Notes: a model not told the origin generated them from the sequence alone. Numbered from the stretch's first letter, positions 9,654-61,660 are shown. The stretch: DNA of 64,000 nucleotides from Clostridiales bacterium (GCA_003452395.1 DMOI01000054.1:4003-68002); one strand, 5' to 3'. A program made the numbers and translations.

Positions 9654-10607
9654 TCACCTCCTCTCATTAATCTTGTTATGAAACTCTTGATATTTTGCTC
9701 CTAAATAAGGATGTCTCCTAATATCTGTTGATTTATCATTTTCAGAGCCACATTTTAGATATTCTCTGTACATTTCAAAAAGCATAATATCCATATTTTC
9801 CTCTGATATAGTGAAATTATCAAGGATATAATTTTTCATACAAAATAAGTCCTCATAATAAAAATTGCTTCCTTTATACTTTGCTATAATACTTTCGTTA
9901 TGTCTCCTATGATAATTAAGAACAGTAGAACAATAGCATATTTTGCCACCCCGCAAGGCATACACATACATAATCCAGTCATAGAAAACGTTAAATTGCT
10001 TCATATACTCGTAAACATTTTTAAGTGCATTTTTCTTAAATACAACCGAGCTAATATTGTAGACAGTATTTTTTATGCATAAATTATTTTCAACAAAGCT
10101 CTTACCATCTACACAAAAATCATCTAAAATCTCTTCCTCATCAATATAGTAATGCTTTAGTTTATTGTTACGTTCATCCACAGGAATTGACTTGCAAAAA
10201 TACACATTAGTTTCATCATCTGCATACATTTTCTTAATATTTTCTAAAAAGTTTCCACTGCAATAATCATCTTGCTCAGCAATCCAAACAAAGTCACTCT
10301 TTGACTTCTTTATTCCTTTAATGATCTGCCTTGCACAACCTTCATTTCGCCAATTTTTAATTATCCGATATTTTATTTTACTAGGTTTTAGTATTTCTTT
10401 TGCTAATTTTAAACTATTATCAGTTGATGCATCATCTAGAAAAACTATCTCATCTGGCTTACTTGTCTGATTAATAATACTGCTAAGCCTGTCCCTCAGA
10501 TACTTTTCGCCATTATAACACAACACAACAACACTTACCTTCATCTGTTTATCGTTGATATTTTTAAAACCAATTTTTTTCAAAAAATTACTTACCATTT
10601 TTCTCAT
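9654..10607 (-). CDS. Family-2 glycosyltransferase
   Basis: 317 aa. VSVVVLCYNGEKYL...IVFLDDASTDNS (GT2 DxD region). RBS AGGAGG. Confidence 0.8.
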   Translation of the reverse strand: MRKMVSNFLKKIGFKNINDKQMKVSVVVLCYNGEKYLRDRLSSIINQTSKPDEIVFLDDASTDNSLKLAKEILKPSKIKYRIIKNWRNEGCARQIIKGIKKSKSDFVWIAEQDDYCSGNFLENIKKMYADDETNVYFCKSIPVDERNNKLKHYYIDEEEILDDFCVDGKSFVENNLCIKNTVYNISSVVFKKNALKNVYEYMKQFNVFYDWIMYVYALRGGKICYCSTVLNYHRRHNESIIAKYKGSNFYYEDLFCMKNYILDNFTISEENMDIMLFEMYREYLKCGSENDKSTDIRRHPYLGAKYQEFHNKINERR

Positions 10608-10723
10608 AAAAATTCCTCCTATTTATAATTATTATATGTTAGTCATTCCCTTAAAGTTACCTTAAATAAGTGACTGAGGTCAAAATATAAGAGGTTAAAG
10701 ATAGCTATTTCACAAAAAGGTTT

Positions 10724-10820: not shown

Positions 10821-11228
10821 TTATTCGTCATCATCATCATCATCCGACAAATAATAATGTATTCTTTCAGTTCCTGATGCGATTTGAATAAGAGGAATAT
10901 ATAAAAGTTTTATATTAACATTACTATTTTCTTGGGTAACTTCGCCATAAGGCTTGTCCGAATGATGCTTTTTGTGCTTTTTACCTGATGGCCTTGCAAT
11001 GATACCTCCAAAGTCTTCACTTATTCTATCTGCCAATTTACGTGATATTTCATCAGCAAGTCTTTCAGCAGAGCCGAATTTATTTACGATTTCATCAGTA
11101 CTTGTATTTCCGTAAGCTTTATCAATATATCTGATTATTTCACTTCTTAAACTGCCCTTAAATTCCTCAGGTGCATCTATTTTAGATATTAAATTATCCA
11201 CATATTCCAAGGTTTCTTGATTCAACAT
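10821..11228 (-). CDS. Hypothetical acidic protein with poly-Asp C-terminus
   Basis: 135 aa. RBS GAGGAGGTG. Helical N-terminus, KKHKKHH basic patch, DDDDDDE tail. No family recognised. Confidence 0.5.
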   Translation of the reverse strand: MLNQETLEYVDNLISKIDAPEEFKGSLRSEIIRYIDKAYGNTSTDEIVNKFGSAERLADEISRKLADRISEDFGGIIARPSGKKHKKHHSDKPYGEVTQENSNVNIKLLYIPLIQIASGTERIHYYLSDDDDDDE

Positions 11229-11381
11229 TTCAACACCTCCTCTTTATCGATAGTTATAAACCAACCTAATATATACTATGTGAACAAGCATAAAAAGGTT
11301 CTAAAATAGCTTGTCACAATTAGAAAATATCTACATATATAATATTATACTAGCGTTAACAAAATGAAGGAGTGATTCACT

Positions 11382-13367
11382 ATGGCAGAGCCATATATAC
11401 CCTATGCTATACTAGCAAACGAAAGTGACTGTAGTCTTTACCTTATTGATTTAAACGACTACACTGTTTTTTATAACCTTAAACTCCCTTATAATCCTGT
11501 CGGTATAGATATATCACGTAAAAGTTCGGGTACACTTTCTCTGAAAGATAGTATGATTGCTATTATAAGCAGTGGGGCAAATAAAAAATTTATGACTGTA
11601 GATTTAGGATTACGTACGCCTATCCTTAAAGATACAGAAGATGTTGATTTTTCGATTACGTCCATACGAGATGTAAATTATCTTTATAATCCAACACAAG
11701 TTCGTGCTGTTGGAGTTGGTACAACTCTCGATCCAGGTATTGCAAGCTATACAATCTCTGTAAGAAACACTCTATTCACCTATTCCATTCCGGGTGAATG
11801 CGTTTTTCTAAGTGTAAATGAAGATAACTATCATCGTTTATATTTTTTTGTAACAGATTATACATCAAAAACACTTACTCTTTTTTGGCTGCACCAAAAT
11901 GGAATTATCGAAAAAGACCATGTAGTCGACACATATACAGAACATCCTGTTTATGTAGACCTTGCCTATGGTTGTATATTTGTGCTAACTGAAGAAGGAA
12001 CTCTCTATGGCTACAAATATAATGGACCAGGGGATATAAGTCTGGTAACGCAGACAATTACTAATAATATTGCTCATTCATTTACCCAAAATAGTAGTGT
12101 GCGGGCAATCTACGTTTTATCAGAGCACACCATAGAAGTATTTGAGTTTAACTCGAGTACATATCAATTAACCAAAGTTAATTCTTTCGAGCACAAAAGC
12201 ACAGTTAATGTTCCCATCGGTATAAGAGGTATCGCTTTCAGTAATCCAGCTCAGAAGCTGGTGGTAAGCCTTGCGCCTCATGCTAAGGTGTTCGATTCAA
12301 ATGGGGTACTTCTAAAAGAGCTGGATAATATTGAAGGTGGAACAAAAGGTATTGCTGTATTTGAAAAGCAGGGAATTATTGAGCCAAACGAGATTTTACT
12401 TGCTACTTCCAGTGATGATACATTATATAAGATAGATACACATACTTCCCGCGTTCTATCAACAACCTCACTTAAAGAACACCTTTATCCCCCTCTAAAT
12501 GCTACAAGTATAGCAGCACAAGATAACGGAACTAACTGCATCGTTATGGGTGAAAAAGGATGGTATACAAAAGTTTTTACTGGTGCAGAACAGCCATACA
12601 TTACTTTTCACTGGATGTCTTATGTTAGTGCACACAGCGTTAAATATGGTAAATACGCTTTACTTGCTAGTGGTGGATATAATGAAAATGACGGTATCGA
12701 CTGGATTGATGGCTATAGCTATGTATTTGCAGATGTACAAGGCGTTGAAGAATGTCAGCTTATTTATGGGATATTTTATAAAACGGGGCGTATTAAAGCA
12801 TATGCTGTTTACTATAAAGGTAACATTGGAAGTGTGTATGTAGGTGAAATACAAAACAAAAAAGCACCTGCCGAAATTATGGTAAGTGACTCCCCAATAA
12901 ATATAGCCTTGACTCCTGATGAAAATTTTCTACTAGTAGCATGTTACACTAGTAACAAAGTAGACATTATTGATATAAGCAATATTGAAAATGTATGCAT
13001 TCCAATGTATTATATCCCTTGTCCACCAGAACATAAATATTTCGGTGTTACCCACTCTGTACTAACCAATGAAAAACCACAAACAATAATATATAGTAAA
13101 GTAAAAGACAAAGTATTTGTTTTGACAAAAGATTTTGTGGAAGTTTATACATTTGATCCTGTAGCAAAGACTTTAAATAAATTATTTGAATTTATGCATT
13201 ACCAAACTATTAACCCAATATATGGCGTAAACCAAATGGCGCTGGCCAAAGATGGTAATCGTGCATATATATTAGGTAGTGGTGTCATTAAAGTGTTTGA
13301 TACTGACAATGGTCAATATATTAGAAATCTGTCAGATAGCGACTTTACAAGTATTTATATATATTAA
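11382..13367 (+). CDS. Beta-propeller repeat protein (YVTN/lactonase-like repeats), no signal peptide seen
   Basis: 661 aa. Recurrent blade-like segments, e.g. DSPINIALTPDENFLLVACYTSNKVDIIDIS, GIAFSNPAQKLVVSLAPHAKVFDSNG, LYLIDLNDYTV. RBS AAGGAG. Confidence 0.5.
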   Translation: MAEPYIPYAILANESDCSLYLIDLNDYTVFYNLKLPYNPVGIDISRKSSGTLSLKDSMIAIISSGANKKFMTVDLGLRTPILKDTEDVDFSITSIRDVNYLYNPTQVRAVGVGTTLDPGIASYTISVRNTLFTYSIPGECVFLSVNEDNYHRLYFFVTDYTSKTLTLFWLHQNGIIEKDHVVDTYTEHPVYVDLAYGCIFVLTEEGTLYGYKYNGPGDISLVTQTITNNIAHSFTQNSSVRAIYVLSEHTIEVFEFNSSTYQLTKVNSFEHKSTVNVPIGIRGIAFSNPAQKLVVSLAPHAKVFDSNGVLLKELDNIEGGTKGIAVFEKQGIIEPNEILLATSSDDTLYKIDTHTSRVLSTTSLKEHLYPPLNATSIAAQDNGTNCIVMGEKGWYTKVFTGAEQPYITFHWMSYVSAHSVKYGKYALLASGGYNENDGIDWIDGYSYVFADVQGVEECQLIYGIFYKTGRIKAYAVYYKGNIGSVYVGEIQNKKAPAEIMVSDSPINIALTPDENFLLVACYTSNKVDIIDISNIENVCIPMYYIPCPPEHKYFGVTHSVLTNEKPQTIIYSKVKDKVFVLTKDFVEVYTFDPVAKTLNKLFEFMHYQTINPIYGVNQMALAKDGNRAYILGSGVIKVFDTDNGQYIRNLSDSDFTSIYIY

Positions 13368-19200: not shown

Positions 19201-19397
19201 CCATCTTTCGAGCCATCGTCTATTATTATGAACTCAAAATTTTTAAATGTTTGATTTAGTACGCTATCTATAGCCCTACTTAAATAAACTGCCCCTCTAC
19301 AATATGTAGGCATAATTATACTTACAATAGGACTCTTCATTCTTTTATTTTTATTAATTATTTGCAAATCTTCCATCAATTTTCCTGCTTTAAGCAT
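16245..19397 (-). CDS. Three-module glycosyltransferase (GT2 + central GT-B-like + C-terminal GT4-like)
   Basis: 1050 aa. N-terminus IVSIIMPTYCRG...FIIIDDGSKDGT (GT2). C-terminus SMDESTPQTILQAMAAGVLVVSTDVGG (GT4 E-x7-E region). The middle region resembles the C-domain of the 599-aa GT. RBS GAAGGAGG. Confidence 0.75.
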   Translation of the reverse strand: MLKAGKLMEDLQIINKNKRMKSPIVSIIMPTYCRGAVYLSRAIDSVLNQTFKNFEFIIIDDGSKDGTFEILKEYQRKDSRVVIIRHEKNSGLPALRVNEGIIHARGKYICYQFDDDEYLPNFLEVLYNEIKTKDYPCVVYGNCKAEIKSPDGNVVETIFGKEFNYGLLMNYNYIANNSVMHDRSIFDLVGLYDPHILMRRFSDYDLWLRMGKEVPFIWVDKMISRVHAGEKNSLADMIDYNVTKLSNIRKYIEIPRNDFLRYDNISEYDVDDIENKYNHYFRQKEIDYLKRFEITPYITQNSYYLEKNDKYIANLSRPRLRRLLVTKCDFSTSVDVTIKNYTNRIANFPYNYFFLDEGSQSIFTDADYDHDILALYRTIGVNSTKLLEDNKNQGKPVMYIMDDNMFKFHELGEEFSYLKPTAQGYIELEKQVSGSDLVVSYNPIITDDCKKYNKNIIELKTNIPYEYVSTKKNAKSKKIKIGMFSGYVRKNELKEMWELLKKISKKYKKKIEFHLWGMNPKEFGELDCEVYYRPFTHSYDNYLCAVKNSFFHYHICPLNSKKDAALSKSAIKFLEGTVAGAVGIFSNVSPYKNIPDNMCIKVDEGLENWEKTIDKAINLKEEERMKMFNNAKKYIIENYSTEAQVYSFITALETAELYSKMRGKKIAYFFHDAYLGGATLHLLKHALMLRELGFEVLLCTTTIQEQIKDLSQYVQRYNLNVNILKFSRYVELVKPNAQDIEDARGLANWFSWNNVGLVHSVTYNTSVGIACKVNKIPHVATLHQFYKNEVSKDDIRKNKLIDIVHSSSNKYAKMWSDNLLVPARKMCCAIDDNFFSYYDDNVDNVSRSKEKIKILLSGTLQERKNQSNAIKAVALLREKGYNVFLDLIGYDNLLVSYAEECKKIISENRLEEYVNIRGFTENPEDYYANCNILLCSSMDESTPQTILQAMAAGVLVVSTDVGGVLEIIKDNYSGIICKGYDEKSLQEGLEKAINLNNGEKVDMLTNANNTVRMVAKYDFIKSELVNLYNEAFEESKNNPPPNILEEISTS

Positions 19398-19500
19398 TTT
19401 TACCTCCTTCCTGTATTGTACGCACTTATACGCTACATGTTAACTATTAATCTCTTCTTCTCACTATTATATTTTTAAAATACAAAAAGGGTGATAATGT

Positions 19501-19536
19501 AAAAGGTCTGGCATGTGATTTGCGTGCCCGACCTTT
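19501..19536 (-). terminator. Hairpin terminator after the gvp cluster
   Basis: AAAGGTC-GGCA...TGCC-GACCTTT stem immediately downstream of the stop at 19541. The U-tract on the minus strand is only moderate. Confidence 0.55.
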
Positions 19537-19540
19537 TACA

Positions 19541-20122
19541 TTATAGACTTTCTTTATTTTCGTCAATCTTTTTTTCTTCATCAATGAAGTCTTTTTTATC
19601 ACATTTATCATGTTTATCATGATGTTTTTCAACAAATACAGTTAGGAGTTCTTTTTCAAAAACTATTACTTCTGCTTTAATTACAACTTTCCCTGTAATA
19701 ATAGAATGTCTACCACAATTTTTAAATTTTAAGTCCTTACAGTATGCCTCTTTAATCTCTAAACAAATGTTTTCTTCATGCAATTCCTTAGACCCACAGC
19801 CATCTTCGCAGTGTTTATGTAAAGAAATTTTTTCTTCTACAACTTCTGACTTAACAACTTCTCTCTTTACTCCACAATGGTCTATATATTTTATAATATA
19901 TTTATATACTATAATAACTATAATTTCTCTTCTATGTTCATCTATTCTTACACTCTTTCGAATGCATTTTACATCACAGTCTATTATATATTTTATAGTT
20001 CTATATACTTTATGGCATATTTTATTTTCTATGATGAAGCATTTCTCAAAACAAACAACATCTAGTAAAGCTTTTACTTTTTGTATTGCTTTATCTTTGC
20101 TTATGTTTTCTATTTTTTCCAT
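19541..20122 (-). CDS. Cys/His-rich hypothetical protein, last gene of the gvpA-gvpN unit
   Basis: 193 aa from the ATG at 20122 (RBS AAGGAGGTG). 15 Cys by my count, plus a KHHDKHDKCDKKD tail. No family recognised. Confidence 0.5.
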   Translation of the reverse strand: MEKIENISKDKAIQKVKALLDVVCFEKCFIIENKICHKVYRTIKYIIDCDVKCIRKSVRIDEHRREIIVIIVYKYIIKYIDHCGVKREVVKSEVVEEKISLHKHCEDGCGSKELHEENICLEIKEAYCKDLKFKNCGRHSIITGKVVIKAEVIVFEKELLTVFVEKHHDKHDKCDKKDFIDEEKKIDENKESL

Positions 20123-20143
20123 ATAAATCACCTCCTTTCCCTT

Positions 20144-20190
20144 GTCCGGATATACTTGAACCCTATGTAGTGTCCAGATATATCTGGACT
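20144..20190. repeat. ~46-nt double-hairpin element, copy 1 (second copy at 40339-40384)
   Basis: gtccggatatacttgaaccctatgtagtGTCCAGATATATCTGGACt aligns with ttcagatacatctgaaccatacataatGTCCAGATGTATCTGGACt. Confidence 0.8.
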
Positions 20191-20194
20191 ATTC

Positions 20195-21082
20195 TTATAA
20201 TACGTCAGACATAATTTTATCCAACTCACTTATTATTTTTTCTTTTTCAAGAGCTGTACTATGAGATTTTTCAGATAAAATAACGTCTCTGCAAATTTGT
20301 TTAAATAATTCCTCTTTCAGTTTCGTTTCTAACTTACTTACCTTTATACTTTTTGCTATTATTATTCCACTTCTTATTGTTGGGCTAAAGTTCATGTCTT
20401 TTAACTCTCTAAATTTTCTTATAATATCAACGATAGTCTCTGCAATTTTAGTCACGATTTTAGCTTGAGATTTTAAAATTTGTATTTCTGTTTCTCTATC
20501 TGGAAAATCTAAGCTTAATGTAATCATTCTATCTTTTAAAGCATCTTGTAATTTATGAACACCCGCATATTCCTCCGGATTACTAGTAAATATAACTCTA
20601 AAATCTGGATGTATTCTTATAACCTCTTTTCCATTCTTTCTAGAATTTGTCTCTATAATTTTTTCTTCAAGAATAGATAAAAATACATTATTAGTTTCCG
20701 GTCTAGATCTAGTAAATTCGTCATATATCAAAACATATCCATTTTTACAAGCCTCTAGAATACGTCCATCAATCCACTTCACTTCAACTTCCTCTTGTTG
20801 CTTTGCGACACTTGAAACATAGTTATCAAATACTATCTTTCTTTTTAATCCATAACTATTTCCAAGCAAATCACTTCTTTCAAACTCCTCATTTCCAAAC
20901 ATTATCATAACTGGTCTCTCAAGTTTGTTAGCTATATGTACTGCTAATGCTGTTTTGCCTGTGCCGGCTGGACCCTTGAAATGAATTGGAAACCCTGCTT
21001 GCAAATATATTAAACTTCTAGTTATTACATCATTAATATGAGGAGTTACAACAAACTTCTCATGAATCGACATATCTCCCAT
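20195..21082 (-). CDS. gvpN: Gas vesicle protein GvpN (AAA+ ATPase, CbbQ/NirQ/NorQ/GvpN family)
   Basis: 295 aa. Walker A FKGPAGTGKTALA, Walker B VLIYDEF. Sits next to gvpA. Confidence 0.9.
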   Translation of the reverse strand: MGDMSIHEKFVVTPHINDVITRSLIYLQAGFPIHFKGPAGTGKTALAVHIANKLERPVMIMFGNEEFERSDLLGNSYGLKRKIVFDNYVSSVAKQQEEVEVKWIDGRILEACKNGYVLIYDEFTRSRPETNNVFLSILEEKIIETNSRKNGKEVIRIHPDFRVIFTSNPEEYAGVHKLQDALKDRMITLSLDFPDRETEIQILKSQAKIVTKIAETIVDIIRKFRELKDMNFSPTIRSGIIIAKSIKVSKLETKLKEELFKQICRDVILSEKSHSTALEKEKIISELDKIMSDVL

Positions 21083-21173
21083 GTAAAACTCCCCTCCTTA
21101 CTGAATTTTTAATGTTTATTATTTATAATAGAGAGTGGAGAACTGATAAGTTTCATCCACTCTCTATTTATGT

Positions 21174-21410
21174 TTATTCTCCTATTGCTTCATGATGACC
21201 ATGATGATCCCCTCCTAGAAGACCTACTGCATCAGCATATATTAACCATGTTTCTACACTTGCTATAACAACCCTTGCTTCAATTGTTAAAAGCTCAATA
21301 CCTACTAACGAAACAATAGCCCATACATCTATTACAATACCTTTATCTAGAATTCTATCAATAACTTCTACAAGACTTGAAGCATGAACTGATTTTTTAA
21401 TAGTTTTCAT
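21174..21410 (-). CDS. gvpA: Gas vesicle structural protein GvpA (with His-rich C-terminal tail)
   Basis: 78 aa. Canonical core [54 protein letters not shown]. Tail [26 protein letters not shown]. Confidence 0.93.
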
Positions 21411-21507
21411 TTTTTCACCCCCTCCTTTAGTTTTTTTAAGGTTATTAGGGTACCTTCCTTTATTAATTATATGTTCTCATTAACTCGATAACATAAAAAA
21501 TTTATAA

Positions 21508-21599
21508 GGGGGTCATGGACTATTAAATCTAAAACAAGCTTTTATATATACTTTAATTAAAGCTTGAACTGGTTTTAATAGTATGCATATTTGACCCCC
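21508..21599. repeat. 92-nt extended imperfect hairpin between gvpF/L and gvpA
   Basis: Three nested inverted pairs: GGGGGTCA/TGACCCCC, ACTATTAAA/TTTAATAGT and CAAGCTTT/AAAGCTTG. On the minus strand it is followed by a T-rich stretch. Confidence 0.85.
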
Positions 21600-21686
21600 T
21601 CTTATTTTTTTTAAGCTATAAAGCACCCTACTTTATTATATTCGCATTTAAGTTTTTAGTGTCTGTCTACAAGATATTTTTTAATA

Positions 21687-22484
21687 TTATTTTAAGTTTT
21701 CTACAAAATTATAAGGAGGCCATGGACCACTTAGTTTCAAAATCAAACCGTGTCCCCTCACCTTTGAACTTAACTCATTCATTTTTTCTAAAAATAAATC
21801 TTTCTCTGCATAATCTATTAGAAGTGATAAATTCATCACCATATCTTCTTCTCTCTCTGTAAGCTCTTTAGCAAGAATTTTATTAGATTTAACTTCTAAA
21901 ACTAAATCTTTTAAAGTATCTGTTACTTTCCCTATTATAAAATTAACCTTATTAATTGCCTTTTTATTTAAGTTGATTTCTAGTTTCTTTTTTAGAAAAT
22001 ATGCCGCACCTTCTGACATATTAGTCATATTTTCCTTATCTTTTTCTTTTTCTTCATTCATATAATTATTCAGAAACCCTTTTTTATCCCAATACATTTT
22101 ACATGACCATTCTTCTTTACCTTGAAGGCTACTTAAGTTTTCTATTAGCTTATCTTTGAGTTCCATGACAAATTCTTTAATCTTGCTGTCATCATAAAAA
22201 ATTGTACAAAATTTCAAAGGTATAATTTGAGTATACTCCATAACGTTTTTTATTACATCCATATGAATCCTAGCCTTATTTTTTAACCAACTTACATTCT
22301 CTAAATTTTCATCAATATAAGGAGAGCCAAATTCATCTAGCTCTACTTTACTCTCTACAGCATATATACCGTCGTAATCCTCTATATATACGTTATTTCT
22401 TTCATCTATACCTTCATATTCAGGAATATCAAAAAATTCCCCGGCAAATCCATATATGTATACTGCTTGCCCTTTCATTACCAT
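21687..22484 (-). CDS. Gas vesicle protein GvpF/GvpL family (paralog 3)
   Basis: 265 aa. N-terminus AVYIYGF..., C-terminus LKLSGPWPPYNF, typical of GvpL/F. Confidence 0.85.
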   Translation of the reverse strand: MVMKGQAVYIYGFAGEFFDIPEYEGIDERNNVYIEDYDGIYAVESKVELDEFGSPYIDENLENVSWLKNKARIHMDVIKNVMEYTQIIPLKFCTIFYDDSKIKEFVMELKDKLIENLSSLQGKEEWSCKMYWDKKGFLNNYMNEEKEKDKENMTNMSEGAAYFLKKKLEINLNKKAINKVNFIIGKVTDTLKDLVLEVKSNKILAKELTEREEDMVMNLSLLIDYAEKDLFLEKMNELSSKVRGHGLILKLSGPWPPYNFVENLK

Positions 22485-22810
22485 TCCTCCTCAGCCAGTC
22501 TCTCCATTTTCTTTGGTATTTTCTTTTTTTTAGGTGCTTCTAGTTGTTTAGTAGTTTCTTTATTGTCTTCTAGTTGTTTATCATATGCTCTAGATGATAA
22601 TGTCGGATCACTTTTCCACCAGTCTATTCCCATTTCCATTGCTTTATCTACCGAAGCTACAACAAGTCGTATTTTAATAGTTATTAGCTCTACATCTGCA
22701 ATAGCGATACTTATATCTCCAGCTATAACAACACCCTTGTCTAATACTCTTTCTAGGATGTCCCCAAGTGTAGCTCCTCCACCTGAATGTGTAATTCTAT
22801 TTTGACTCAT
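22478..22810 (-). CDS. gvpJ: Gas vesicle protein GvpJ-like (GvpA/J/M/S family)
   Basis: LGDILERVLDKGVVIAGDISIAIADVELITIKIRLVVASVDKAMEMGIDWW. Start set at the ATG at 22810 after GGAGG. Confidence 0.8.
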   Translation of the reverse strand: MSQNRITHSGGGATLGDILERVLDKGVVIAGDISIAIADVELITIKIRLVVASVDKAMEMGIDWWKSDPTLSSRAYDKQLEDNKETTKQLEAPKKKKIPKKMERLAEEEW

Positions 22811-22828
22811 TAAATCAATCACCTCCAT

Positions 22829-23140
22829 TTACATTAAATCACCCAAAGGTCCTAAATTAATATTTAAATCTTCCTCGGTTAAATCGAAGATTTCCATCAT
22901 CTCTTTAATTTTTTCATCAAGTTTCATAAAGGTTAGTCCAAGCTCCTCAATTTCTTGATTTGACACAGAATTGTTTTCAATTCTGGTCATAGCTTGCTTT
23001 TCCATTAGTCTCCTGAGGAGTTGTATCAAAGTCAAAACTAATTGCGCTAACCCCTTATCCACATTGTCTTTGTTGGCTTCTAATCTATTCTTGGTTTTTT
23101 GAAGCCTTTCAACCTCTTTCTTAATATCTAAATCCTCCAA
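22829..23140 (-). CDS. gvpK: Gas vesicle protein GvpK
   Basis: 103 aa. GLAQLVLTLIQLLRRLMEKQAMTRIE matches the GvpK helix signature. Confidence 0.85.
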   Translation of the reverse strand: MEDLDIKKEVERLQKTKNRLEANKDNVDKGLAQLVLTLIQLLRRLMEKQAMTRIENNSVSNQEIEELGLTFMKLDEKIKEMMEIFDLTEEDLNINLGPLGDLM

Positions 23141-23142
23141 AT

Positions 23143-23856
23143 TTAATCATCATCCTTTCCATCTAAGCTAACAAAACTGTAAGGTGTCCATGGCCCAGAT
23201 ACTATTATTTCAAAATTATCGTCATCCTCTAAATTATTAATGCATTCTCTAAACAGGTCTATATTTTCCTTTTCTATTAAATATGCACCGTTTAATACGA
23301 TTTTGCTATCCTGATTATACTTTTTCTTTTCTTTATTAACTAGGTGAGATATGCTATTTTCTATGGGATATATCTTTTGTTTTATTTCTTCCAGTTTACT
23401 TTTTTTGCTTGTAAATTCCTTGAATTTTTTAATCATATAATTATATCCATTACTTTCTTTTATATCATTTTTTTCAGATTCATTAACCATATTTTCACTA
23501 GTAATAATTTTTACGCCCATCTCAATTTTTCCTGATATGTTTTCAAAATTCTTTAATATTTTATCATTATATTTATTACAAAACTTTTCTAGGCTTGCTT
23601 CTGATAATAAAATGGTTGAAAATGAAAATGGAAGCACATCAAATTTTCTCATTAGCATTTCTTGCACTCGCTCGTGCTGCATCAGGTAACTATACTCTGC
23701 TTCTACCTTTCTGCAAGAAGTCAAACTATAAATAAGCGAATAATTTTCATGTTTATAAATCAAAATAGAAGCACCCTGAACTCCTCGCTCATAAAAGTCA
23801 TTTATATCTATTGAATTAATTAACCCGTATAGATAGTAATATTCTATCAACCTCAA
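23143..23856 (-). CDS. Gas vesicle protein GvpL/GvpF family (paralog 2)
   Basis: 237 aa. YYLYGLI N-terminus and VSGPWTPYSF C-terminus. Confidence 0.8.
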   Translation of the reverse strand: MRLIEYYYLYGLINSIDINDFYERGVQGASILIYKHENYSLIYSLTSCRKVEAEYSYLMQHERVQEMLMRKFDVLPFSFSTILLSEASLEKFCNKYNDKILKNFENISGKIEMGVKIITSENMVNESEKNDIKESNGYNYMIKKFKEFTSKKSKLEEIKQKIYPIENSISHLVNKEKKKYNQDSKIVLNGAYLIEKENIDLFRECINNLEDDDNFEIIVSGPWTPYSFVSLDGKDDD

Positions 23857-24047
23857 TCACCCTGACTTTCCGTATATTTCTTCATAGTTTCAACTGATGT
23901 AACTATGAGTCCGAGGCCAACATAAATCAAATCAACATTCGCCACAGAAATAGTTAAATCACCCCTAATTACAATTCCCTTATTTAGAAGTCTGTCTAAT
24001 AGTTCTAAAAGCGTCATATCTTGTTGTTCTAAGACTTCATTACTCAT
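23853..24047 (-). CDS. Small gas vesicle protein of the GvpA/J/M/S family (GvpS-like)
   Basis: LLELLDRLLNKGIVIRGDLTISVANVDLIYVGLGLIVTSVETMKKY. Start set at the ATG at 24047 after AGGAGG. Confidence 0.8.
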   Translation of the reverse strand: MSNEVLEQQDMTLLELLDRLLNKGIVIRGDLTISVANVDLIYVGLGLIVTSVETMKKYTESQGD

Positions 24048-24048
24048 A

Positions 24049-24267
24049 TTAATCCTCCTGTTCATCACTTTCCTTCTGCCTAGATTCCAGTAATCGTTCT
24101 ATTAAATCATCTTGAGTTTTTTCATACTCTTTTTTTAAAATTTTACCCTCTTCGTATAAAATATTTAGCTCCATTAGCTTTTTCTGTATAGCTGGTGTAG
24201 AATAGTATTCCTTCTCAGCATAATCTATAATGGTTTCAAATATTTTAATTACACCTTTTATAACCAT
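24049..24267 (-). CDS. gvpG: Gas vesicle protein GvpG
   Basis: 72 aa. ...EYYSTPAIQKKLMELNILYEEGKILKKEYEKTQDDLIERL fits the GvpG pattern (E.Y...I...L..L..YE.GEI...EY). Confidence 0.75.
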   Translation of the reverse strand: MVIKGVIKIFETIIDYAEKEYYSTPAIQKKLMELNILYEEGKILKKEYEKTQDDLIERLLESRQKESDEQED

Positions 24268-24284
24268 AACATCTCACCACTAAT

Positions 24285-24995
24285 CTATTTAAACTTTTCG
24301 TTTATAAAACTATAGGGCGGTAATGGCCCTATATATTTAAAATTGAAACTACCTATATATTTCTGATAAAGTTCATTTATAGCCTCATCAAACTTTAACT
24401 CATTTGATTTATCAACTAAAAAAGATGCCTTTAATGCCATTCTAGGGCTTATATCCTCACTAATAGTAAAATCATCAGTATACTCTTTCAGCTTACTCAT
24501 TACTTCATCTTTATATTTTTTTCTTAAATCGTTAACCCTTTCTTCAACCATTTTCCCAAGTTCTATTTTATCTTGCTCTGTCACTCTTTTCTTGCCAGCT
24601 AATTGCTTTTTAAATGCAATAATTTTTTTATTTTCTACATCTTTAGAAAAACTTTCCTCGTTCCATATAAGTTTCAAGCCAACTTCAATTTTATTTTGTA
24701 CTTTTCCAAATAATTTTAGTATAGGAAAATAATTTTTCATTAGAAATTCCTCTGCTTGCTCTCTTGACTCTACTACCATGCCATAACTAATAGGTATAAC
24801 TTCTCGTTCCTCAAATACCTCTCTTATTATCTTATCATGTTTCAATATCCCTTCTTTTGTTGCATTAATATTTGATTTCATGTTTTCGCAAAGCAAGACT
24901 ATATCTTTATAACTAATAAAACTTTTATTTTTGATTTTCAATTTTCCATTCGGATCGTTTTGATGAAAGATACAGTAACAGTAAAGTTTCGCCAT
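24285..24995 (-). CDS. Gas vesicle protein GvpF/GvpL family (paralog 1)
   Basis: 236 aa. KLYCYCIF N-terminus and YIGPLPPYSF C-terminus. Confidence 0.8.
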   Translation of the reverse strand: MAKLYCYCIFHQNDPNGKLKIKNKSFISYKDIVLLCENMKSNINATKEGILKHDKIIREVFEEREVIPISYGMVVESREQAEEFLMKNYFPILKLFGKVQNKIEVGLKLIWNEESFSKDVENKKIIAFKKQLAGKKRVTEQDKIELGKMVEERVNDLRKKYKDEVMSKLKEYTDDFTISEDISPRMALKASFLVDKSNELKFDEAINELYQKYIGSFNFKYIGPLPPYSFINEKFK

Positions 24996-25011
24996 TATTT
25001 CATCCTCCTAA

Positions 25012-25281
25012 CTATTCTTCGTATAGTTCTTCAATTGAGCCTTTTTCTCTCATTCTTAACCTCTTAAATGATTTTATCACATAAGACTTATCAAGTTCTA
25101 TTTCATAAGTCTCTACTAAAGGTCTTTTAGCTTTTTCTCTCATATATTCATCGTATACCATTACTTCTATTTCTATAATCCAGTTGCTATCTACAGATTT
25201 CATCCCTATAATTGCAGCATCCTGTTTAAAAAACTCCTGCGAAAATTTACTTATTGACTTTCCAATATCTGATACAGACAT
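25012..25281 (-). CDS. gvpO: Gas vesicle protein GvpO/GvpR-like, first gene of the cluster
   Basis: 89 aa. ...SNWIIEIEVMVYDEYMREKAKRPLVETYEIELDKSYVIKSFKRLRMREKG fits the GvpO/R pattern as I recall it. RBS AAGGAGGGTG. Confidence 0.7.
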   Translation of the reverse strand: MSVSDIGKSISKFSQEFFKQDAAIIGMKSVDSNWIIEIEVMVYDEYMREKAKRPLVETYEIELDKSYVIKSFKRLRMREKGSIEELYEE

Positions 25282-25350
25282 GCACTCACCCTCCTTATTT
25301 TTTTAGTATTATATAAAATTATATGTATAGTATTGATTATTATGCTAAGA

Positions 25351-28775: not shown

Positions 28776-28927
28776 AATTTGTACCTCCTTTTCATATCTC
28801 AATTCTATTTTTCTCATCTTTTTTCCATTTATGCATTGACATTTTGCAAAAAATATATTAAAATAGGGACATCGACTTTGTATCAAAGTGCAGTCATTTA
28901 AATAAATCTTTAAGGAGGTCATGAAAC

Positions 28928-53892: not shown

Positions 53893-54573
53893 CTATCTAT
53901 TATTTAATATCCATTCAATATCTTCCTTTGCTATTTTAATATTTCTCATTCCTTGTCCTACAGGGTAATAAACTGGAAAGACTTTGTAGAATAACCCTTC
54001 AATCTCGAGTATTTCATACTTCTTTCTGTATTGTGATACTTTGATATCTTTATTTAAAAGTACTGAACTTACCTGATTACCAAATGTAATAATTACTTTT
54101 GGTTTTATAATATCTATTTCTTGTTTAAATAAATCTGTGTACTTTTTAAAAACTTCATTTGGCAATGGTCTTGCATCTATTTGCGTAGCTTTTGACAAAT
54201 TAGTTATGTACATAGAATTGTTATAAACTTTTTTATAAACATCCTCTGCGAACTGATAATCCCAATCTATTGGCTTTCTAAAATTTATTTCATCAATTAT
54301 AGTTTTATCGATTAGCCCCAGTTGGTAAAACATGTTCCATACATTTTTAGTTGCAATCCATGGTGCCTTTATACCAGTCCAGCTTTTATTTGAAGCTACA
54401 TTCCTTGAAGTCGGATTCATAAAAACTAAGCATATCTCAGGATTATTTATTTGCCCACAGCCATAAATAGAATCTAAGTTGATATCTCCATAAATAAGCT
54501 GTAGTTCATTAAATTTATCAAAAATCTCTATGATTTGCATATCATCTAAAGATTTATTATCTAAATTACACAT
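53893..54573 (-). CDS. Uracil-DNA-glycosylase-superfamily protein (non-family-1)
   Basis: 226 aa. ...ICLVFMNPTSRN... and ...VIITFGNQV...VYYPVGQG resemble UDG-superfamily motif positions. The assignment is tentative. Confidence 0.5.
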   Translation of the reverse strand: MCNLDNKSLDDMQIIEIFDKFNELQLIYGDINLDSIYGCGQINNPEICLVFMNPTSRNVASNKSWTGIKAPWIATKNVWNMFYQLGLIDKTIIDEINFRKPIDWDYQFAEDVYKKVYNNSMYITNLSKATQIDARPLPNEVFKKYTDLFKQEIDIIKPKVIITFGNQVSSVLLNKDIKVSQYRKKYEILEIEGLFYKVFPVYYPVGQGMRNIKIAKEDIEWILNNR

Positions 54574-54798
54574 ATTTAAAAATCCTCCTTCTTAATATAT
54601 CTTTTCACATCCACTCACTTTTATTAACTCCGTATAAATGGCTCCATTTGCTATTATTTATATTCTGTTTTTATTATACATAACTTTTTAAAATAATTCA
54701 ACATTATACCATATTTTTTTTACAAACGATCTGGTAGTCCGTTCTAAAGCCAAAAGCTTTATGCAAAACCTCCAGTATTATATAAAATTTAATGAATA

Positions 54799-59937: not shown

Positions 59938-61660
59938 ATGCGAACTAGGGACGGTTCGAGGCCACTGAAAAAGTGGTCTGTTTTTAATCCTTAACTATCC
60001 TCTTTTAGTTTGCACATATTTTTTGTAAATTTTTCTATGAATCAAACCGATTCTATAAAAATTCGTCTGTATATTAGATCATTAATTTGATTATTCTTTT
60101 CATATTTACTGCAAATATTGTTAATGCTCCTTGCATTTCCATACCAACAAGGCCTGATGACGATGCTATATCGTAACCATGTCTTGTTTTTAACTCTCCA
60201 TTTTTTGTTTCTATTTTATAACGTTCCTTGGATTTATCTTTAAAGTACTCTGTTTCTTGAAAATCTATGTGTTCATTATGTTCCGGAGTACGTATTGTTA
60301 CAGTATATACTTTAGTTTTGCTTCCTTCTTTATAACATCCTTCTTTAAAAGGACATTGTTTACATCGTGAGATATCAAAAAAATAACTTTCTTTTGTAAA
60401 CTGTTTATTTGTCCTTTTATCAATTGATGTAGTTCTACTTTTGTGTATACTCATTTCACCATGTTTGCATGTGTACATTTCTGCATCCTTATTATACTCA
60501 AATTCATTTTTCCTTTTTTTCCCGTGCATAATTGCTTTACTTACCTTTGATACTAGTTGTATATTATTTTCTTTTGCATACTCTATATTATCTATTTCCG
60601 AATAAGCTCCGTCTCCTATTATTGTATCTATTGTCATTCCTGCGTTTTTACTTTTACATACTAATTCTTGTAGTTGTTTTCCGTCGTGTTTTTCACCTGT
60701 TGTTACAGTTGTTCCTGTTATTATTCTTTCTTCTGTCATAGCTATATGTGTTTTATATCCGAAAAATGATGTGTCTGCCGTTTTATGCCCTGTTTTTGCA
60801 TCTTCGTCTTTTGATATTTTAATTTGCTCGATATCATCTGTTACTAATTCTTTCAATAAGTTCAGTCTAGTCTTTACTGCCGGAATATCGCTCACACCGT
60901 TTTCTGTTTGTACTACCTTTATTACTTCTTCGCAGTACTTTATCTCATCTTCAAGCATTCCACTTTTGGGCTTGTTTGGAAATTTAGTCTTTATCAATTC
61001 ATCAATAGCGTAAACAGATTTTCTTAGATTCTTTGATGCTTCTACTAATATTTCTCTAGCTGATTTTCTATTGTATCTACTGTATGTATGTGTTGAATCC
61101 ACAATTATTGATTTACTCTTTATTATTTCTTTTTCAATTGCAAGTTGAACTGTTTTACCAATTAGTAAGTCAAGTAATTCTAAATCCTTTAGACGAAGTT
61201 TTCTAAACTTTGTTAATGAACTTGCATTTATTACGTCTGCTTCTGGTGCAATATCAAGAAAGTATTTAAATGACATATCATATCTTGAACGCTCAACTAC
61301 ATCAATGTCCGATAGCGAATGAATCACTTTTAGTAACAGATATTTAAACATTTGGATTGGATCAATTGCAGTTCGCCCGTTAACCATTGAATATTTATCT
61401 TTTAGCTCTTTATAAATAAAACTGAAGTCTATTAATTCTTTGATTTTTCTCAATATATTATCTTTTGGTACTACTATATCATAAATGTTTGTATATTCGC
61501 TTATATTCAAGCTTTGTTGTGCGTTCAACATATAATCACCCTTTGTTTTCTAGTATGTCTAATTATACCAGAAAAACTTAATTTATAATATAGTTTTTTG
61601 CATTTATTCATATTTTATGCTGACTTTTTCAGTGGCCTCGATACGTCCCTGATTCGCATT
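59938..61660 (-). mobile_element. IS1182-family insertion sequence (~1.72 kb) with ~35-bp imperfect terminal inverted repeats
   Basis: Left end atGCGAACTAGGGACGGTTCGAGGCCACTGAAAAAGT. Reverse complement of right end atGCGAATCAGGGACGTATCGAGGCCACTGAAAAAGT. Confidence 0.85.
60074..61531 (-). CDS. IS1182/IS5-like DDE transposase
   Basis: 485 aa. The N-terminus ...GRTAIDPIQMFKYLLLK... (DUF772-like) and C-terminus ERYKIETKNGELKTRHGYD are typical of this family. Confidence 0.8.
   Translation of the reverse strand: MLNAQQSLNISEYTNIYDIVVPKDNILRKIKELIDFSFIYKELKDKYSMVNGRTAIDPIQMFKYLLLKVIHSLSDIDVVERSRYDMSFKYFLDIAPEADVINASSLTKFRKLRLKDLELLDLLIGKTVQLAIEKEIIKSKSIIVDSTHTYSRYNRKSAREILVEASKNLRKSVYAIDELIKTKFPNKPKSGMLEDEIKYCEEVIKVVQTENGVSDIPAVKTRLNLLKELVTDDIEQIKISKDEDAKTGHKTADTSFFGYKTHIAMTEERIITGTTVTTGEKHDGKQLQELVCKSKNAGMTIDTIIGDGAYSEIDNIEYAKENNIQLVSKVSKAIMHGKKRKNEFEYNKDAEMYTCKHGEMSIHKSRTTSIDKRTNKQFTKESYFFDISRCKQCPFKEGCYKEGSKTKVYTVTIRTPEHNEHIDFQETEYFKDKSKERYKIETKNGELKTRHGYDIASSSGLVGMEMQGALTIFAVNMKRIIKLMI

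What the first reader, a model, noticed from the sequence alone, without database searches (positions are those of the whole stretch)
19541..25281. Compact, non-canonically ordered gas-vesicle gene cluster in an endospore-former
Eleven co-directional minus-strand genes are present. In order they are gvpO/R-like, gvpF/L, gvpG, a GvpS-like small protein, gvpL/F, gvpK, a gvpJ-like gene and a third gvpF/L. After a 276-nt gap come gvpA, gvpN and a Cys/His-rich ORF. All families regarded as core in Halobacterium, Bacillus megaterium and Serratia clusters are present (A, F/L, G, J/M/S, K, N, O). I see no GvpC-like repeat protein and no gvpP/Q/T/U or gvpD/E-type regulators. The major structural gene sits at the distal end instead of leading the operon. 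The whole set is only ~5.7 kb. It is flanked on one side by a putative spore-glycan locus and on the other by spoIIP/gpr. Old microscopy literature describes gas-vacuole-like caps on spores of some anaerobic spore-formers. A sporulation-linked gas-vesicle system would be poorly characterised genetically.
Basis: partly seen in the sequence, partly recalled or inferred. Interest (0 to 1): 0.7.

Follow-up and report, generated by a model that had tools for sequence, protein, structure and literature searches.

The report
Sporulation-wired gas vesicle gene cluster
This is a real, complete gas-vesicle gene cluster in an uncultured spore-forming groundwater Clostridiales bacterium; the genes are ordinary, but their promoters look like mother-cell sporulation promoters, and a previously unnamed cysteine-rich protein travels with them.

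Summary
Eleven co-directional minus-strand ORFs at 19541-25281 are gvpO/R, gvpF/L, gvpG, gvpS/M-like, gvpF/L, gvpK, gvpJ-like and gvpF/L, then a 276-nt gap, then gvpA, gvpN and a Cys/His-rich ORF ("X"). The window comes from MAG "Clostridiales bacterium GWD2_32_59", where NCBI already names GvpA and GvpN.

The core F-G-S-F-K-J-F matches Sporohalobacter and Marinisporobacter paralogue by paralogue. The O…F-A-N layout recurs in two other lineages. The set contains all eight genes essential in Bacillus megaterium.

Three things are new:
1. Weight matrices built from mapped C. difficile promoters put the best sigma-E-type site of the whole 64-kb window just upstream of gvpO. Sigma-E/K-type sites also lie upstream of gvp operons in nine Bacillota loci (p about 1e-6 against neighbouring promoters). 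A forespore matrix scores low there but finds gpr, which serves as a positive control.
2. X belongs to a tiny unnamed all-beta family that sits next to gvp genes in every context long enough to judge.
3. The 276-nt gap is a decayed duplicate of the gvpA 5' region that folds into a conserved hairpin.

The most likely function is gas vesicles made in the sporulating mother cell. No expression data exist.

The parts
25317..25347 (-). Sigma-E-type promoter of the gvpO-to-gvpF3 operon (TAGCATAATA-N12-CATATAATT, i.e. ATA-N15-CATATAAT)
   Evidence: It is the top-scoring sigma-E PWM site of the whole window, rank 1 of 127,934 positions with a score of 14.6, about the 95th percentile of the training promoters. 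It lies in a 38-nt block that is identical in the sister MAG, and homology between the two MAGs starts exactly here. It scores low with the forespore PWM.
25012..25281 (-). gvpO/gvpR-like gene (89 aa)
   Evidence: Pfam GvpO E=4e-4, below threshold. It is orthologous to the 84-aa GvpO of Sporohalobacter and Marinisporobacter.
24285..24995 (-). gvpF/L paralogue 1
   Evidence: Pfam GvpL_GvpF 3e-44. Its best match is the first F/L gene of related clusters.
24049..24267 (-). gvpG
   Evidence: Pfam GvpG 6.5e-15.
23853..24068 (-). Small GvpA-family paralogue (gvpS/gvpM-like). The true start is probably an internal ATG, since the sister gene is 61 aa.
   Evidence: Pfam Gas_vesicle 4e-16. The closest NCBIfam model is GvpM, below cutoff.
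23143..23856 (-). gvpF/L paralogue 2 (GvpL-like)
   Evidence: Pfam 2e-35. NCBIfam GvpL is the best model, below cutoff.
22829..23140 (-). gvpK
   Evidence: Pfam GvpK 2.6e-29.
22478..22828 (-). gvpJ-like GvpA-family paralogue (116 aa)
   Evidence: Pfam Gas_vesicle 4e-16. NCBIfam GvpJ is the best model, below cutoff.
21687..22484 (-). gvpF/L paralogue 3
   Evidence: Pfam 1.3e-46.
21634..21664 (-). Distal promoter copy in the gap, sigma-K-type (AGACACTAAA-N12-AATATAATA). In the sister MAG it reads AC-N16-CATATACT.
   Evidence: Sigma-K PWM score 12.7, rank 11 of 127,934. The sister copy scores 16.3, rank 2 of 29,878.
21553..21588 (-). Relic mini-ORF (MHTIKTSSSFN*) with a strong ribosome-binding site, left over from a duplicated gvpA 5' end
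   Evidence: Copy 1 against copy 2 aligns with score 90, versus 35+-6 for shuffles. In the sister MAG the score is 111. The sister relic reads MGTIKKSMQALSITKNKGLT*.
21488..21619 (-). Long conserved RNA hairpin (GAGGGGGUCA paired with UGACCCCCUU) followed by a U-rich tract. It is probably a terminator or attenuator between the two transcription units.
   Evidence: Folding energy -38.6 kcal/mol, z=-6.2. The sister MAG folds the same way, z=-3.05.
21466..21473 (-). Proximal -10 box CATATAAT of gvpA (promoter copy 2). Its -35 element is degenerate in this genome.
   Evidence: It is one of only five CATATAAT occurrences on the minus strand of the window. It is conserved in the sister MAG.
21174..21410 (-). 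gvpA, the major shell protein, with a His-rich C-terminal tail ([13 protein letters not shown])
   Evidence: NCBIfam NF006874 scores 111.7 bits, above its cutoff. It matches the solved GvpB/GvpA structures 7r1c at 1.8e-25 and 8gbs at 7e-23.
20195..21082 (-). gvpN (AAA+ ATPase)
   Evidence: TIGR02640 scores 330.7 bits against a 266.8 cutoff.
19541..20122 (-). X: a Cys/His-rich all-beta protein of a small unnamed gvp-associated family
   Evidence: Only four representative clusters were found among 1.84 billion proteins. BLASTP against the Marinisporobacter neighbour gives E=1e-8. It sits next to gvp genes in every context long enough to judge. The AF2 model has a core pLDDT above 90 and six long strands. 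It has no PDB fold or sequence match.
19501..19537 (-). Terminator-like hairpin plus T-run that ends the gvpA-gvpN-X unit
   Evidence: Read directly from the sequence. The automatic scan did not flag it because the loop exceeds 8 nt.

Best explanation
This is a complete Bacillota-type gas vesicle (gvp) cluster in an uncultured, spore-forming groundwater Clostridiales bacterium. It is arranged as two tandem transcription units.

Unit 1 is gvpO/R-F1-G-S-F2-K-J-F3. The genes are tightly packed or overlapping, and the unit encodes the assembly and nucleation proteins. A sigma-E-type (early mother-cell) promoter precedes it.

Unit 2 is gvpA-gvpN-X. It encodes the shell protein, the AAA+ protein needed for vesicle elongation, and a Cys/His-rich beta protein. 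Sigma-E/K-type promoter copies precede it and a terminator follows it.

The 276-nt spacer between the units is a decayed tandem copy of the gvpA promoter, leader and first codons. It now folds into a long hairpin with a U-tract, which probably insulates or attenuates transcription between the units.

Predicted behaviour: the cluster is silent in growing cells. It is switched on in the mother cell during sporulation, so gas vesicles form beside or around the developing spore. These would be the 'gas caps' seen by microscopy in Desulfofarcimen acetoxidans, Sporohalobacter lortetii and others. The neighbouring glycan locus, which carries sigma-K-type promoters, would be co-expressed.

What is shown: gene identities, conserved architecture, promoter-motif statistics, the hairpin, and the association of X with gvp genes.

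What is inferred: the timing and cell type of expression, actual vesicle formation, and any role of X. My guess for X is a surface or tethering protein that links vesicles to the spore envelope, but confidence in that is low.
For: Gene families.

Completeness: the cluster has A, N, F, G, L-like, S, K and J, which is the eight-gene essential set of B. megaterium (PMC11223475).

Conserved architecture: the same order occurs in the sister MAG, in L093 and in the more distant L008. The core order is shared paralogue by paralogue with Sporohalobacter salinus and Marinisporobacter balticus.

Promoters:
- The sigma-E PWM, built from 47 mapped C. difficile promoters, gives rank 1 of 127,934 upstream of gvpO.
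- All nine Bacillota gvp loci tested have a hit of at least 13.3 upstream of gvpO, gvpA or X.
- In 109 neighbouring operon-leading regions the median is 7.9 and 5.5% reach 13 or more (Mann-Whitney p=1.6e-6).
- Only 1 of 60 gvpA/gvpO upstream regions from other phyla reaches 12.
- The forespore sigma-F/G PWM scores low at gvp (7.8 and 7.2) but gives rank 3 of 127,936 upstream of gpr, which is a positive control.
- The D. acetoxidans gvpA upstream region holds the top sigma-K hit of its locus. That species makes gas vacuoles in sporulating mother cells (PMC3035247).

Spacer: gap duplication, hairpin.

Sporulation genes spoIIP and gpr are in the window.
Against: - There are no expression or microscopy data, and the organism is uncultured.
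- The mother-cell -10 box CATATAAT contains the sigma-A hexamer TATAAT, so a housekeeping promoter with a weak -35 element cannot be excluded.
- The PWMs come from a different family of Clostridia and are AT-rich, so AT-rich intergenic DNA scores high in general. About 5% of other promoter regions reach comparable scores.
- In this window the gvpA-proximal promoter copy has a poor -35 element, and the distal copy has A instead of C at the first -10 position.
- The Bacillota loci are not all independent. The window, L002 and L093 are close relatives.
- spoIIP/gpr adjacency is not conserved in the sister MAG.
- X is absent from most spore-former gvp clusters and from the related L092, so it cannot be essential.
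Confidence: 0.62

Rival explanations
1. This is an ordinary buoyancy gas-vesicle cluster expressed in vegetative or stationary-phase cells from sigma-A promoters. The resemblance to sporulation promoters would then be an artefact of AT-rich promoter DNA.
For: CATATAAT contains a perfect sigma-A -10 hexamer. Clostridial sigma-A promoters often have weak -35 boxes. B. megaterium-type clusters work in E. coli without sporulation factors. About 5% of unrelated promoter regions reach similar PWM scores.
Against: The consensus scan found no conserved TTGACA-like -35 element. Its only hit upstream of gvpO (25364-25336, 9 of 12 matches) is not conserved in the sister MAG. The -35 positions carry ATA or AC at the spacing typical of sigma-E or sigma-K in nine loci. 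The signal is absent from non-Bacillota gvp loci. It is specific to the mother-cell matrices and not the forespore matrix. Cultured relatives make vesicles during sporulation.
Confidence: 0.2
2. The cluster is non-functional or decaying. It would be a remnant in a MAG that no longer makes vesicles, as suggested by the degraded gvpA duplicate.
For: The gap holds a decayed gvpA copy. The cluster lacks the Hsp20/GvpH-like gene found next to gvpN in Sporohalobacter, Marinisporobacter and D. acetoxidans.
Against: All ten gvp ORFs are intact and full-length against their profiles. They are conserved at 83-94% amino-acid identity with the same order in independent Rifle assemblies. All eight genes essential in B. 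megaterium are present. Ribosome-binding sites and a terminator are intact.
Confidence: 0.06
3. This cluster is only part of the organism's gvp set. Further genes, such as extra gvpA copies, regulators or a strengthening protein, would lie elsewhere in the genome.
For: Only 64 kb of a 130.7-kb contig of an incomplete MAG could be read. Other Bacillota carry several gvpA copies and extra AAA+ or Hsp20 genes.
Against: No other gvp homologue lies in the window. The closest relatives (L002, L008, L093) show the same self-contained set. The set already equals the experimentally minimal one.
Confidence: 0.12

Closest known systems
Bacillus (Priestia) megaterium gvp cluster gvpAPQBRNFGLSKJTU
   Same: It has the same families: B/A, R(O-like), N, F, G, L, S, K and J. 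It lacks gvpC. Its core runs F-G-(L,S)-K-J. All eight genes shown to be essential there (B, N, F, G, L, S, K, J; PMC11223475) are present here. The GvpA here matches the solved B. megaterium GvpB structure 7r1c at 1.8e-25.
   Different: Here gvpA and gvpN sit after the accessory genes as a separate unit. S precedes the L-like gene. There is a third F/L gene. gvpP, Q, T and U are absent. An extra Cys/His-rich gene, X, follows gvpN. The promoters are sporulation-type. I did not compare the sequences directly with B. megaterium proteins other than GvpB.
gvp clusters of Sporohalobacter salinus and Marinisporobacter balticus (spore-forming anaerobes; the genus Sporohalobacter includes S. lortetii, which makes spores with attached gas vesicles)
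   Same: These are the closest named relatives, with GvpN 51-52% identical. The core order O…F1-G-S-F2-K-J-F3 is identical, and each paralogue finds its counterpart. Sigma-E/K-type sites lie upstream of gvpO and gvpA. Marinisporobacter carries an X homologue next to the cluster.
   Different: In those genomes gvpN follows gvpO directly, and an Hsp20/GvpH-like ~183-aa gene follows gvpN. gvpA is on the opposite strand downstream. Here N has moved behind A, the ~183-aa gene is absent, and A is co-directional.
Desulfofarcimen (Desulfotomaculum) acetoxidans gvp cluster and its sporulation-associated gas vacuoles
   Same: It is a spore-forming Bacillota with documented gas vacuoles beside the spore in sporulating mother cells (PMC3035247). 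Its gvpA upstream region holds the best sigma-K-type site of the locus, score 16.5, rank 1 of 41,782.
   Different: The gene order is different, and the cluster has extra genes: a GvpF-DnaJ fusion, an Hsp20-like gene, a CDC48-type AAA+ gene and an HTH regulator. It has no X.
Haloarchaeal p-vac/c-vac regions (gvpACNO plus gvpDEFGHIJKLM)
   Same: They use a two-unit logic. The shell gene travels with gvpN (and O) in one unit, and the F-M accessory genes form the other. The same families are present: A, F, G, J, K, L, M/S, N and O.
   Different: The haloarchaeal units are divergent, not tandem. They include gvpC, gvpH, gvpI and the GvpD/GvpE regulators, none of which is present here. This comparison rests on established knowledge and was not tested here.

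Membership tests
Gas vesicle (gvp) gene cluster | A GvpA-type major shell protein | tested here: met
   NF006874 scores 111.7 bits, above its cutoff of 100. It matches solved GvpB/GvpA structures 7r1c and 8gbs at 1e-25 and 1e-23.
Gas vesicle (gvp) gene cluster | Conserved accessory set: GvpF/L, GvpG, GvpJ/M/S, GvpK and GvpN | tested here: met
   All score above the Pfam gathering thresholds. GvpN also scores above its NCBIfam equivalog cutoff.
Gas vesicle (gvp) gene cluster | GvpO/GvpR-type small protein | tested here: inconclusive
   Pfam GvpO scores 20.8 bits, below the 25-bit gathering score. However, the gene is clearly orthologous to and syntenic with Sporohalobacter and Marinisporobacter proteins that hit Pfam GvpO.
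Gas vesicle (gvp) gene cluster | Production of gas-filled, pressure-collapsible vesicles | not testable with these tools
   This needs TEM and pressure-collapse assays, or heterologous expression.
B. megaterium-type minimal gvp set | Presence of the eight genes essential in E. coli (B/A, N, F, G, L, S, K, J) | tested here: met
   The essential list comes from PMC11223475. The L versus F and S versus M labels rest on best sub-threshold NCBIfam models.
Cyanobacterial/Serratia-type clusters with GvpC | A GvpC protein with tandem 33-residue repeats | tested here: not met
   There is no tandem coding repeat in 19-26 kb. No ORF in the cluster lacks a gvp family assignment apart from X, and X is non-repetitive and all-beta.
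Mother-cell sporulation regulon (sigma-E / sigma-K) | A promoter with the -35 ATA (sigma-E) or AC (sigma-K) element and the -10 CATA---T element at the correct spacing | tested here: met
   The sigma-E PWM gives rank 1 of 127,934 upstream of gvpO. The sigma-K PWM gives rank 11 in the gvpA leader. The sites are conserved in the sister MAG and recur in eight other Bacillota gvp loci.
Mother-cell sporulation regulon (sigma-E / sigma-K) | Transcription that depends on sigE or sigK and is confined to the mother cell | not testable with these tools
   This needs RNA-seq, reporter fusions or sigma-factor mutants.
Endospore-forming Bacillota (host) | Sporulation-specific genes present | tested here: met
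   SpoIIP scores 7.7e-56 and germination protease Gpr scores 3.9e-94. A sigma-F/G-type site lies upstream of gpr. Only these two marker genes lie in the window. Spo0A and the sigma factors themselves were not seen.
X family (unnamed gvp-associated Cys-rich beta protein) | A ~150-aa conserved core with two invariant Cys, plus location next to gvp genes | tested here: met
   The alignment has invariant C49, G84, C128, F133 and N135. The gene is adjacent to gvp genes in the window, the sister MAG, L093, L005, L010 and L011. L009 is too short to judge.

The most novel reading that the evidence does not exclude
Gas-vesicle operons of endospore-forming Bacillota are members of the mother-cell sigma-E/sigma-K sporulation regulon. 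This would be the genetic basis of the decades-old 'gas caps on spores'. In a subset of these organisms a new Cys/His-rich all-beta protein, X, would act as an accessory that attaches vesicles to the spore envelope or cross-links them there. It might cooperate with the unusual His-rich C-terminal tails of GvpA in this clade and with a co-regulated spore-surface glycan locus.
Probability: 0.4. Interest if true: 0.7.

Novelty: new variant of a known kind. Interest (0 to 1): 0.52.

Why it matters
Gas vesicles attached to anaerobe spores have been seen by microscopy since the 1970s. In the open literature I could search, nobody has linked gvp genes to the sporulation sigma cascade.

Confirmation would have three consequences:
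- It would add an organelle to the mother-cell developmental programme.
- It would make the proposed role of the vesicles, spore dispersal by flotation, testable in genetically tractable relatives.
- It would point to a compact ~5.7-kb cluster that lacks gvpC, has a defined on-switch and carries a candidate new accessory protein. That is of interest for acoustic reporter engineering.

The gene cluster itself is ordinary and was already partly annotated.

Tried and rejected
- Rfam scan of 19-26 kb at E<=1: only chance microRNA-like hits on the GNAT terminator. There is no known riboswitch or leader in the 276-nt gap.
- Sigma-70 consensus scan: 29 sites found against 35 expected, so no enrichment. 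None is conserved at the gvp promoters.
- Word-indexed homologue searches for X and for the 89-aa GvpO-like protein returned only the sister MAG.
- AlphaFold on the two-sequence alignment of X was useless, with pLDDT 41. A five-sequence alignment gave a usable model.
- Foldseek of that model against the PDB gave no significant neighbour. The best E-value was 0.04 with TM about 0.2.
The single genome-contig scan was therefore spent on GvpN. A local X profile found no further members in those 80 loci.
- I considered X to be a SPOCS/DUF3794-like spore-coat domain, but Pfam gives no hit even at E<=10.
- I considered that the His-rich GvpA tails might co-occur with X. I rejected this as a strict rule. 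L092 has the most His-rich tail but no X, and the L010 GvpAs lack such tails.
- I considered the palindrome between gvpN and X (20172-20189) as a regulatory site. It is absent from the sister MAG, where only 13 nt separate the genes.
- Adjacency to spoIIP/gpr as evidence for a sporulation link: it is not conserved.

Full report
**Observation**

Pfam assigns GvpL_GvpF three times (3e-44, 2e-35, 1.3e-46). It also assigns GvpG (6.5e-15), GvpK (2.6e-29), Gas_vesicle three times (about 1e-14 to 4e-16) and AAA_5.

NCBIfam places the 295-aa protein above the GvpN equivalog cutoff (330.7 against 266.8 bits). It places the 78-aa protein above the GvpA subfamily cutoff (111.7 against 100). The 71-aa and 116-aa paralogues are closest to GvpM and GvpJ.

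The first gene (89 aa) hits Pfam GvpO only below threshold (20.8 bits, E=4e-4). It is nevertheless clearly the orthologue of the 84-aa GvpO proteins that open the clusters of Sporohalobacter salinus and Marinisporobacter balticus.

The last ORF is 193 aa from the ATG at 20122, with 12 Cys and 10 His. It has no Pfam or NCBIfam match. No GvpC-like repeat exists, and no other gvp homologue lies in the window.

Exact-sequence look-up identifies the source as MAG 'Clostridiales bacterium GWD2_32_59'. NCBI already names its GvpA and GvpN.

**Surroundings**

- Coordinates 1-19.4 kb hold nucleotide-sugar dehydratases, epimerases, an aminotransferase, a UDP-glucose dehydrogenase and several very large glycosyltransferases.
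- Upstream of gvp lie a GNAT gene, a MORN-repeat gene, spoIIP, gpr and rpsT, followed by housekeeping genes.
- A sister MAG (GWE2_32_10; loci L001-L004) and a further Rifle sediment contig (L093) carry the same gvp genes in the same order. They also carry the same Cys-rich ORF and glycosyltransferases downstream, but their upstream neighbours differ. Adjacency to spoIIP/gpr is therefore not a conserved feature.

**Architecture in context**

I classified the ORFs of related loci with the window's own proteins.

- The order O-F1-G-S-F2-K-J-F3-A-N recurs in the sister MAG and in a more distant metagenomic lineage (L008, GvpN 58% identical).
- Sporohalobacter salinus and Marinisporobacter balticus have O-N-(~183-aa gene)-F1-G-S-F2-K-J-F3, with gvpA on the other strand. 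Each F/L paralogue best matches its positional counterpart. The D. acetoxidans counterpart of the ~183-aa gene is Hsp20-like.
- The core order is thus the normal one for this part of the Bacillota, and it is close to B. megaterium gvpFGLSKJ. Only gvpN and gvpA have moved.
- The set contains all eight genes found essential for B. megaterium vesicles: B, N, F, G, L, S, K and J. R, T and U are dispensable (PMC11223475).
- 'Compact' is therefore accurate, and 'non-canonical' is overstated.

**Transcription units**

- Genes from gvpO to gvpF3 are separated by 0-17 nt or overlap, so they form one operon.
- A terminator follows the upstream GNAT gene (about 25580-25543).
- A terminator-like hairpin follows X (19537-19501).
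- The 276-nt gap is a tandem duplicate of the gvpA 5' region: promoter, leader, ribosome-binding site and first codons. Copy 1 aligns to copy 2 with score 90, against 35+-6 for shuffles. In the sister MAG the score is 111.
- The relic ORF reads MHTIKTSSSFN* here and MGTIKKSMQALSITKNKGLT* in the sister. The real GvpA starts [12 protein letters not shown].
- The relic ribosome-binding site pairs with a downstream CCCCC tract, giving a long hairpin followed by a U-rich run. Folding energy is -38.6 kcal/mol with z=-6.2, and the sister MAG folds alike with z=-3.05.
- I read this hairpin as a terminator or attenuator between unit 1 and unit 2. That reading is an inference.

**Promoters**

Homology between the window and the sister MAG upstream of gvpO begins exactly at a 38-nt identical block, CATAATAATCAATACTATACATATAATTTTATATAATA. 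The C. difficile literature describes mother-cell promoters as a shared -10 box such as CATATAAT, combined with a -35 ATA for sigma-E or a -35 AC for sigma-K (PMC3789822).

I built two-block weight matrices from the 47 sigma-E, 25 sigma-K and 35 sigma-F/G promoters mapped in that paper (Tables S6 and S7).

| Test | Result |
|---|---|
| Sigma-E matrix, upstream of gvpO (window 25347-25317) | 14.6, rank 1 of 127,934 positions on both strands |
| Sigma-E matrix, same site in the sister MAG | rank 1 of 29,878 |
| Sigma-K matrix, distal promoter copy in the gap (window) | 12.7, rank 11 |
| Sigma-K matrix, same copy in the sister MAG | 16.3, rank 2 |
| L008 | AC-N17-CATATAAT upstream of gvpO (rank 1); a sigma-K-type site upstream of gvpA (rank 2) |
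| Marinisporobacter | AC-N17-CATATTTTA upstream of gvpO |
| Sporohalobacter | sigma-E-type site 34 nt upstream of gvpA (rank 2) |
| D. acetoxidans, Anaerosacchariphilus, Desulfovirgula and a Bacillota MAG | rank 1-2 sites upstream of gvpA |

Controls:
1. In 109 other operon-leading upstream regions of the same nine loci, the median best score is 7.9 and 5.5% reach 13. Every gvp locus reaches at least 13.3 (Mann-Whitney p=1.6e-6).
2. Only 1 of 60 gvpA/gvpO upstream regions from other phyla reaches 12.
3. The forespore matrix scores 7.8 and 7.2 at the gvp promoters. It gives 14.7, rank 3 of 127,936, upstream of gpr, a classical sigma-F/G gene. The C. difficile matrices therefore transfer to this organism, and the gvp signal is specific to the mother-cell type.

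Caveats:
- CATATAAT embeds the sigma-A hexamer.
- The matrices are AT-rich.
- The loci are partly related.
- In this window the gvpA-proximal copy has a degenerate -35 element, and the distal copy carries A instead of C at the first -10 position.

**Fit with biology**

- Gas vacuoles form beside the spore in sporulating mother cells of D. acetoxidans (PMC3035247).
- They form in spore-forming cells of Desulfosporosinus cupriresistens, whose genome has a gvp cluster (PMC12739157).
- They form together with endospores in Sporohalobacter lortetii and Orenia sivashensis, where they stay attached to the spore (PMC4187190).
- Full-text searches found no paper that connects gvp genes with sigE, sigK or mother-cell transcription.

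**The Cys/His-rich ORF (X)**

- A profile search of 1.84 billion representative proteins found only four clusters.
- BLASTP against the ORF that lies divergently beside the Marinisporobacter cluster gives E=1e-8, with 26% identity over 148 ungapped residues.
- Every context long enough to judge is next to gvp genes:
  - gvpA-gvpN-X in the window, the sister MAG and L093;
  - gvpA-X in L011;
  - X directly upstream of a large gvp cluster in Bacillota MAG OH_PBB_98 (L010), with a rank-2 sigma-E-type site 25 nt before its start codon;
  - X divergent from gvpO in Marinisporobacter.
- The family has a ~150-residue core with two invariant cysteines.
- AlphaFold with five sequences gives pLDDT above 90 over residues ~21-158, with six long beta strands.
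- It has no significant structural or sequence neighbour in the PDB.
- It is absent from 80 GvpN loci across phyla, from Sporohalobacter and D. acetoxidans, and from the related L092. It is therefore an optional, lineage-restricted accessory.
- Its function is unknown. Cysteine richness, likely mother-cell expression and the neighbouring glycan locus suggest a tether or cross-linker between vesicles and the spore envelope. This is speculation.

**Verdict**

This is a genuine, intact gas-vesicle cluster and a new member of the Bacillota type. Its structural and accessory genes are ordinary, and it was already partly annotated.

Three things go beyond the known:
- statistically supported mother-cell sporulation promoters upstream of gvp operons in spore-formers;
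- the small X family;
- the relic-derived hairpin spacer.

All functional statements remain predictions until expression and imaging data exist.

Noticed in passing
window 10630-10661 (-), 11272-11303 (-), 11312-11343 (+), 19465-19496 (-): The best sigma-K-type PWM sites of the window lie upstream of genes in the glycan locus. The GT2 operon starting at 10607 scores 16.3, the top minus-strand site. The other sites precede the 135-aa ORF at 11228, the divergent 661-aa ORF at 11382 and the 1050-aa double glycosyltransferase at 19397. This fits a late mother-cell, spore-surface glycan locus co-regulated with gvp.
   Followed up: partly
window 21174-21215 (GvpA C-terminus); also L002, L008, L011 and L092: GvpA in this clade ends in a His-rich tail: HHGHH here, HDHHHH in the sister MAG, HHGHHH in L011, HEHGYGQGHGHEH in L008 and HHHHHDHHDHHKH in L092. 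Other Bacillota GvpAs examined lack it. It might bind metal or sense pH on the outer face of the vesicle. It is not strictly linked to X.
   Followed up: partly
window 10821-11228 (-) and L002 10614-11021: A conserved 135-aa acidic-tailed protein with no family match lies directly after X in the sister MAG and L093. In this window it lies 8 kb away inside the glycan locus, preceded by a sigma-K-type site. This shows local rearrangement between the gvp and glycan genes.
   Followed up: partly
window 28807-28837 (-): A forespore sigma-F/G-type site (AATGCATAAA-N11-TGAGAAAAAT; rank 3 in the window) lies just upstream of the likely true start of gpr. The ORF as listed from 28922 is probably too long.
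   Followed up: partly
window 54650-54682 (-): The top sigma-F/G-type site of the window (score 16.1) lies about 80 nt upstream of the 226-aa ORF 53893-54573. This may be a forespore-expressed gene. I did not examine it.
   Followed up: no
window 20172-20189: A perfect 18-nt palindrome, GTCCAGATATATCTGGAC, lies between gvpN and X. It is absent from the sister MAG, where the two genes are 13 nt apart. Its function is unknown.
   Followed up: partly
L006 10937-11488, L005 10944-11498, L007 15444-15974, L008 710-1003: A ~180-aa protein follows gvpN or gvpA in Sporohalobacter, Marinisporobacter and D. acetoxidans. The D. acetoxidans protein scores 5.9e-38 against archaeal Hsp20, so it resembles GvpH. 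L008 keeps only a 97-aa N-terminal piece. The window and the sister MAG lack it altogether.
   Followed up: partly
L092 1383-1831: In the lineage whose GvpN is 61% identical, gvpN is followed directly by a T-box-like leader and hisS. No X and no glycan genes are present.
   Followed up: no
window 60074-61531 (-): A DDE transposase (DUF772 plus DDE_Tnp_1) lies near the right end of the window.
   Followed up: no
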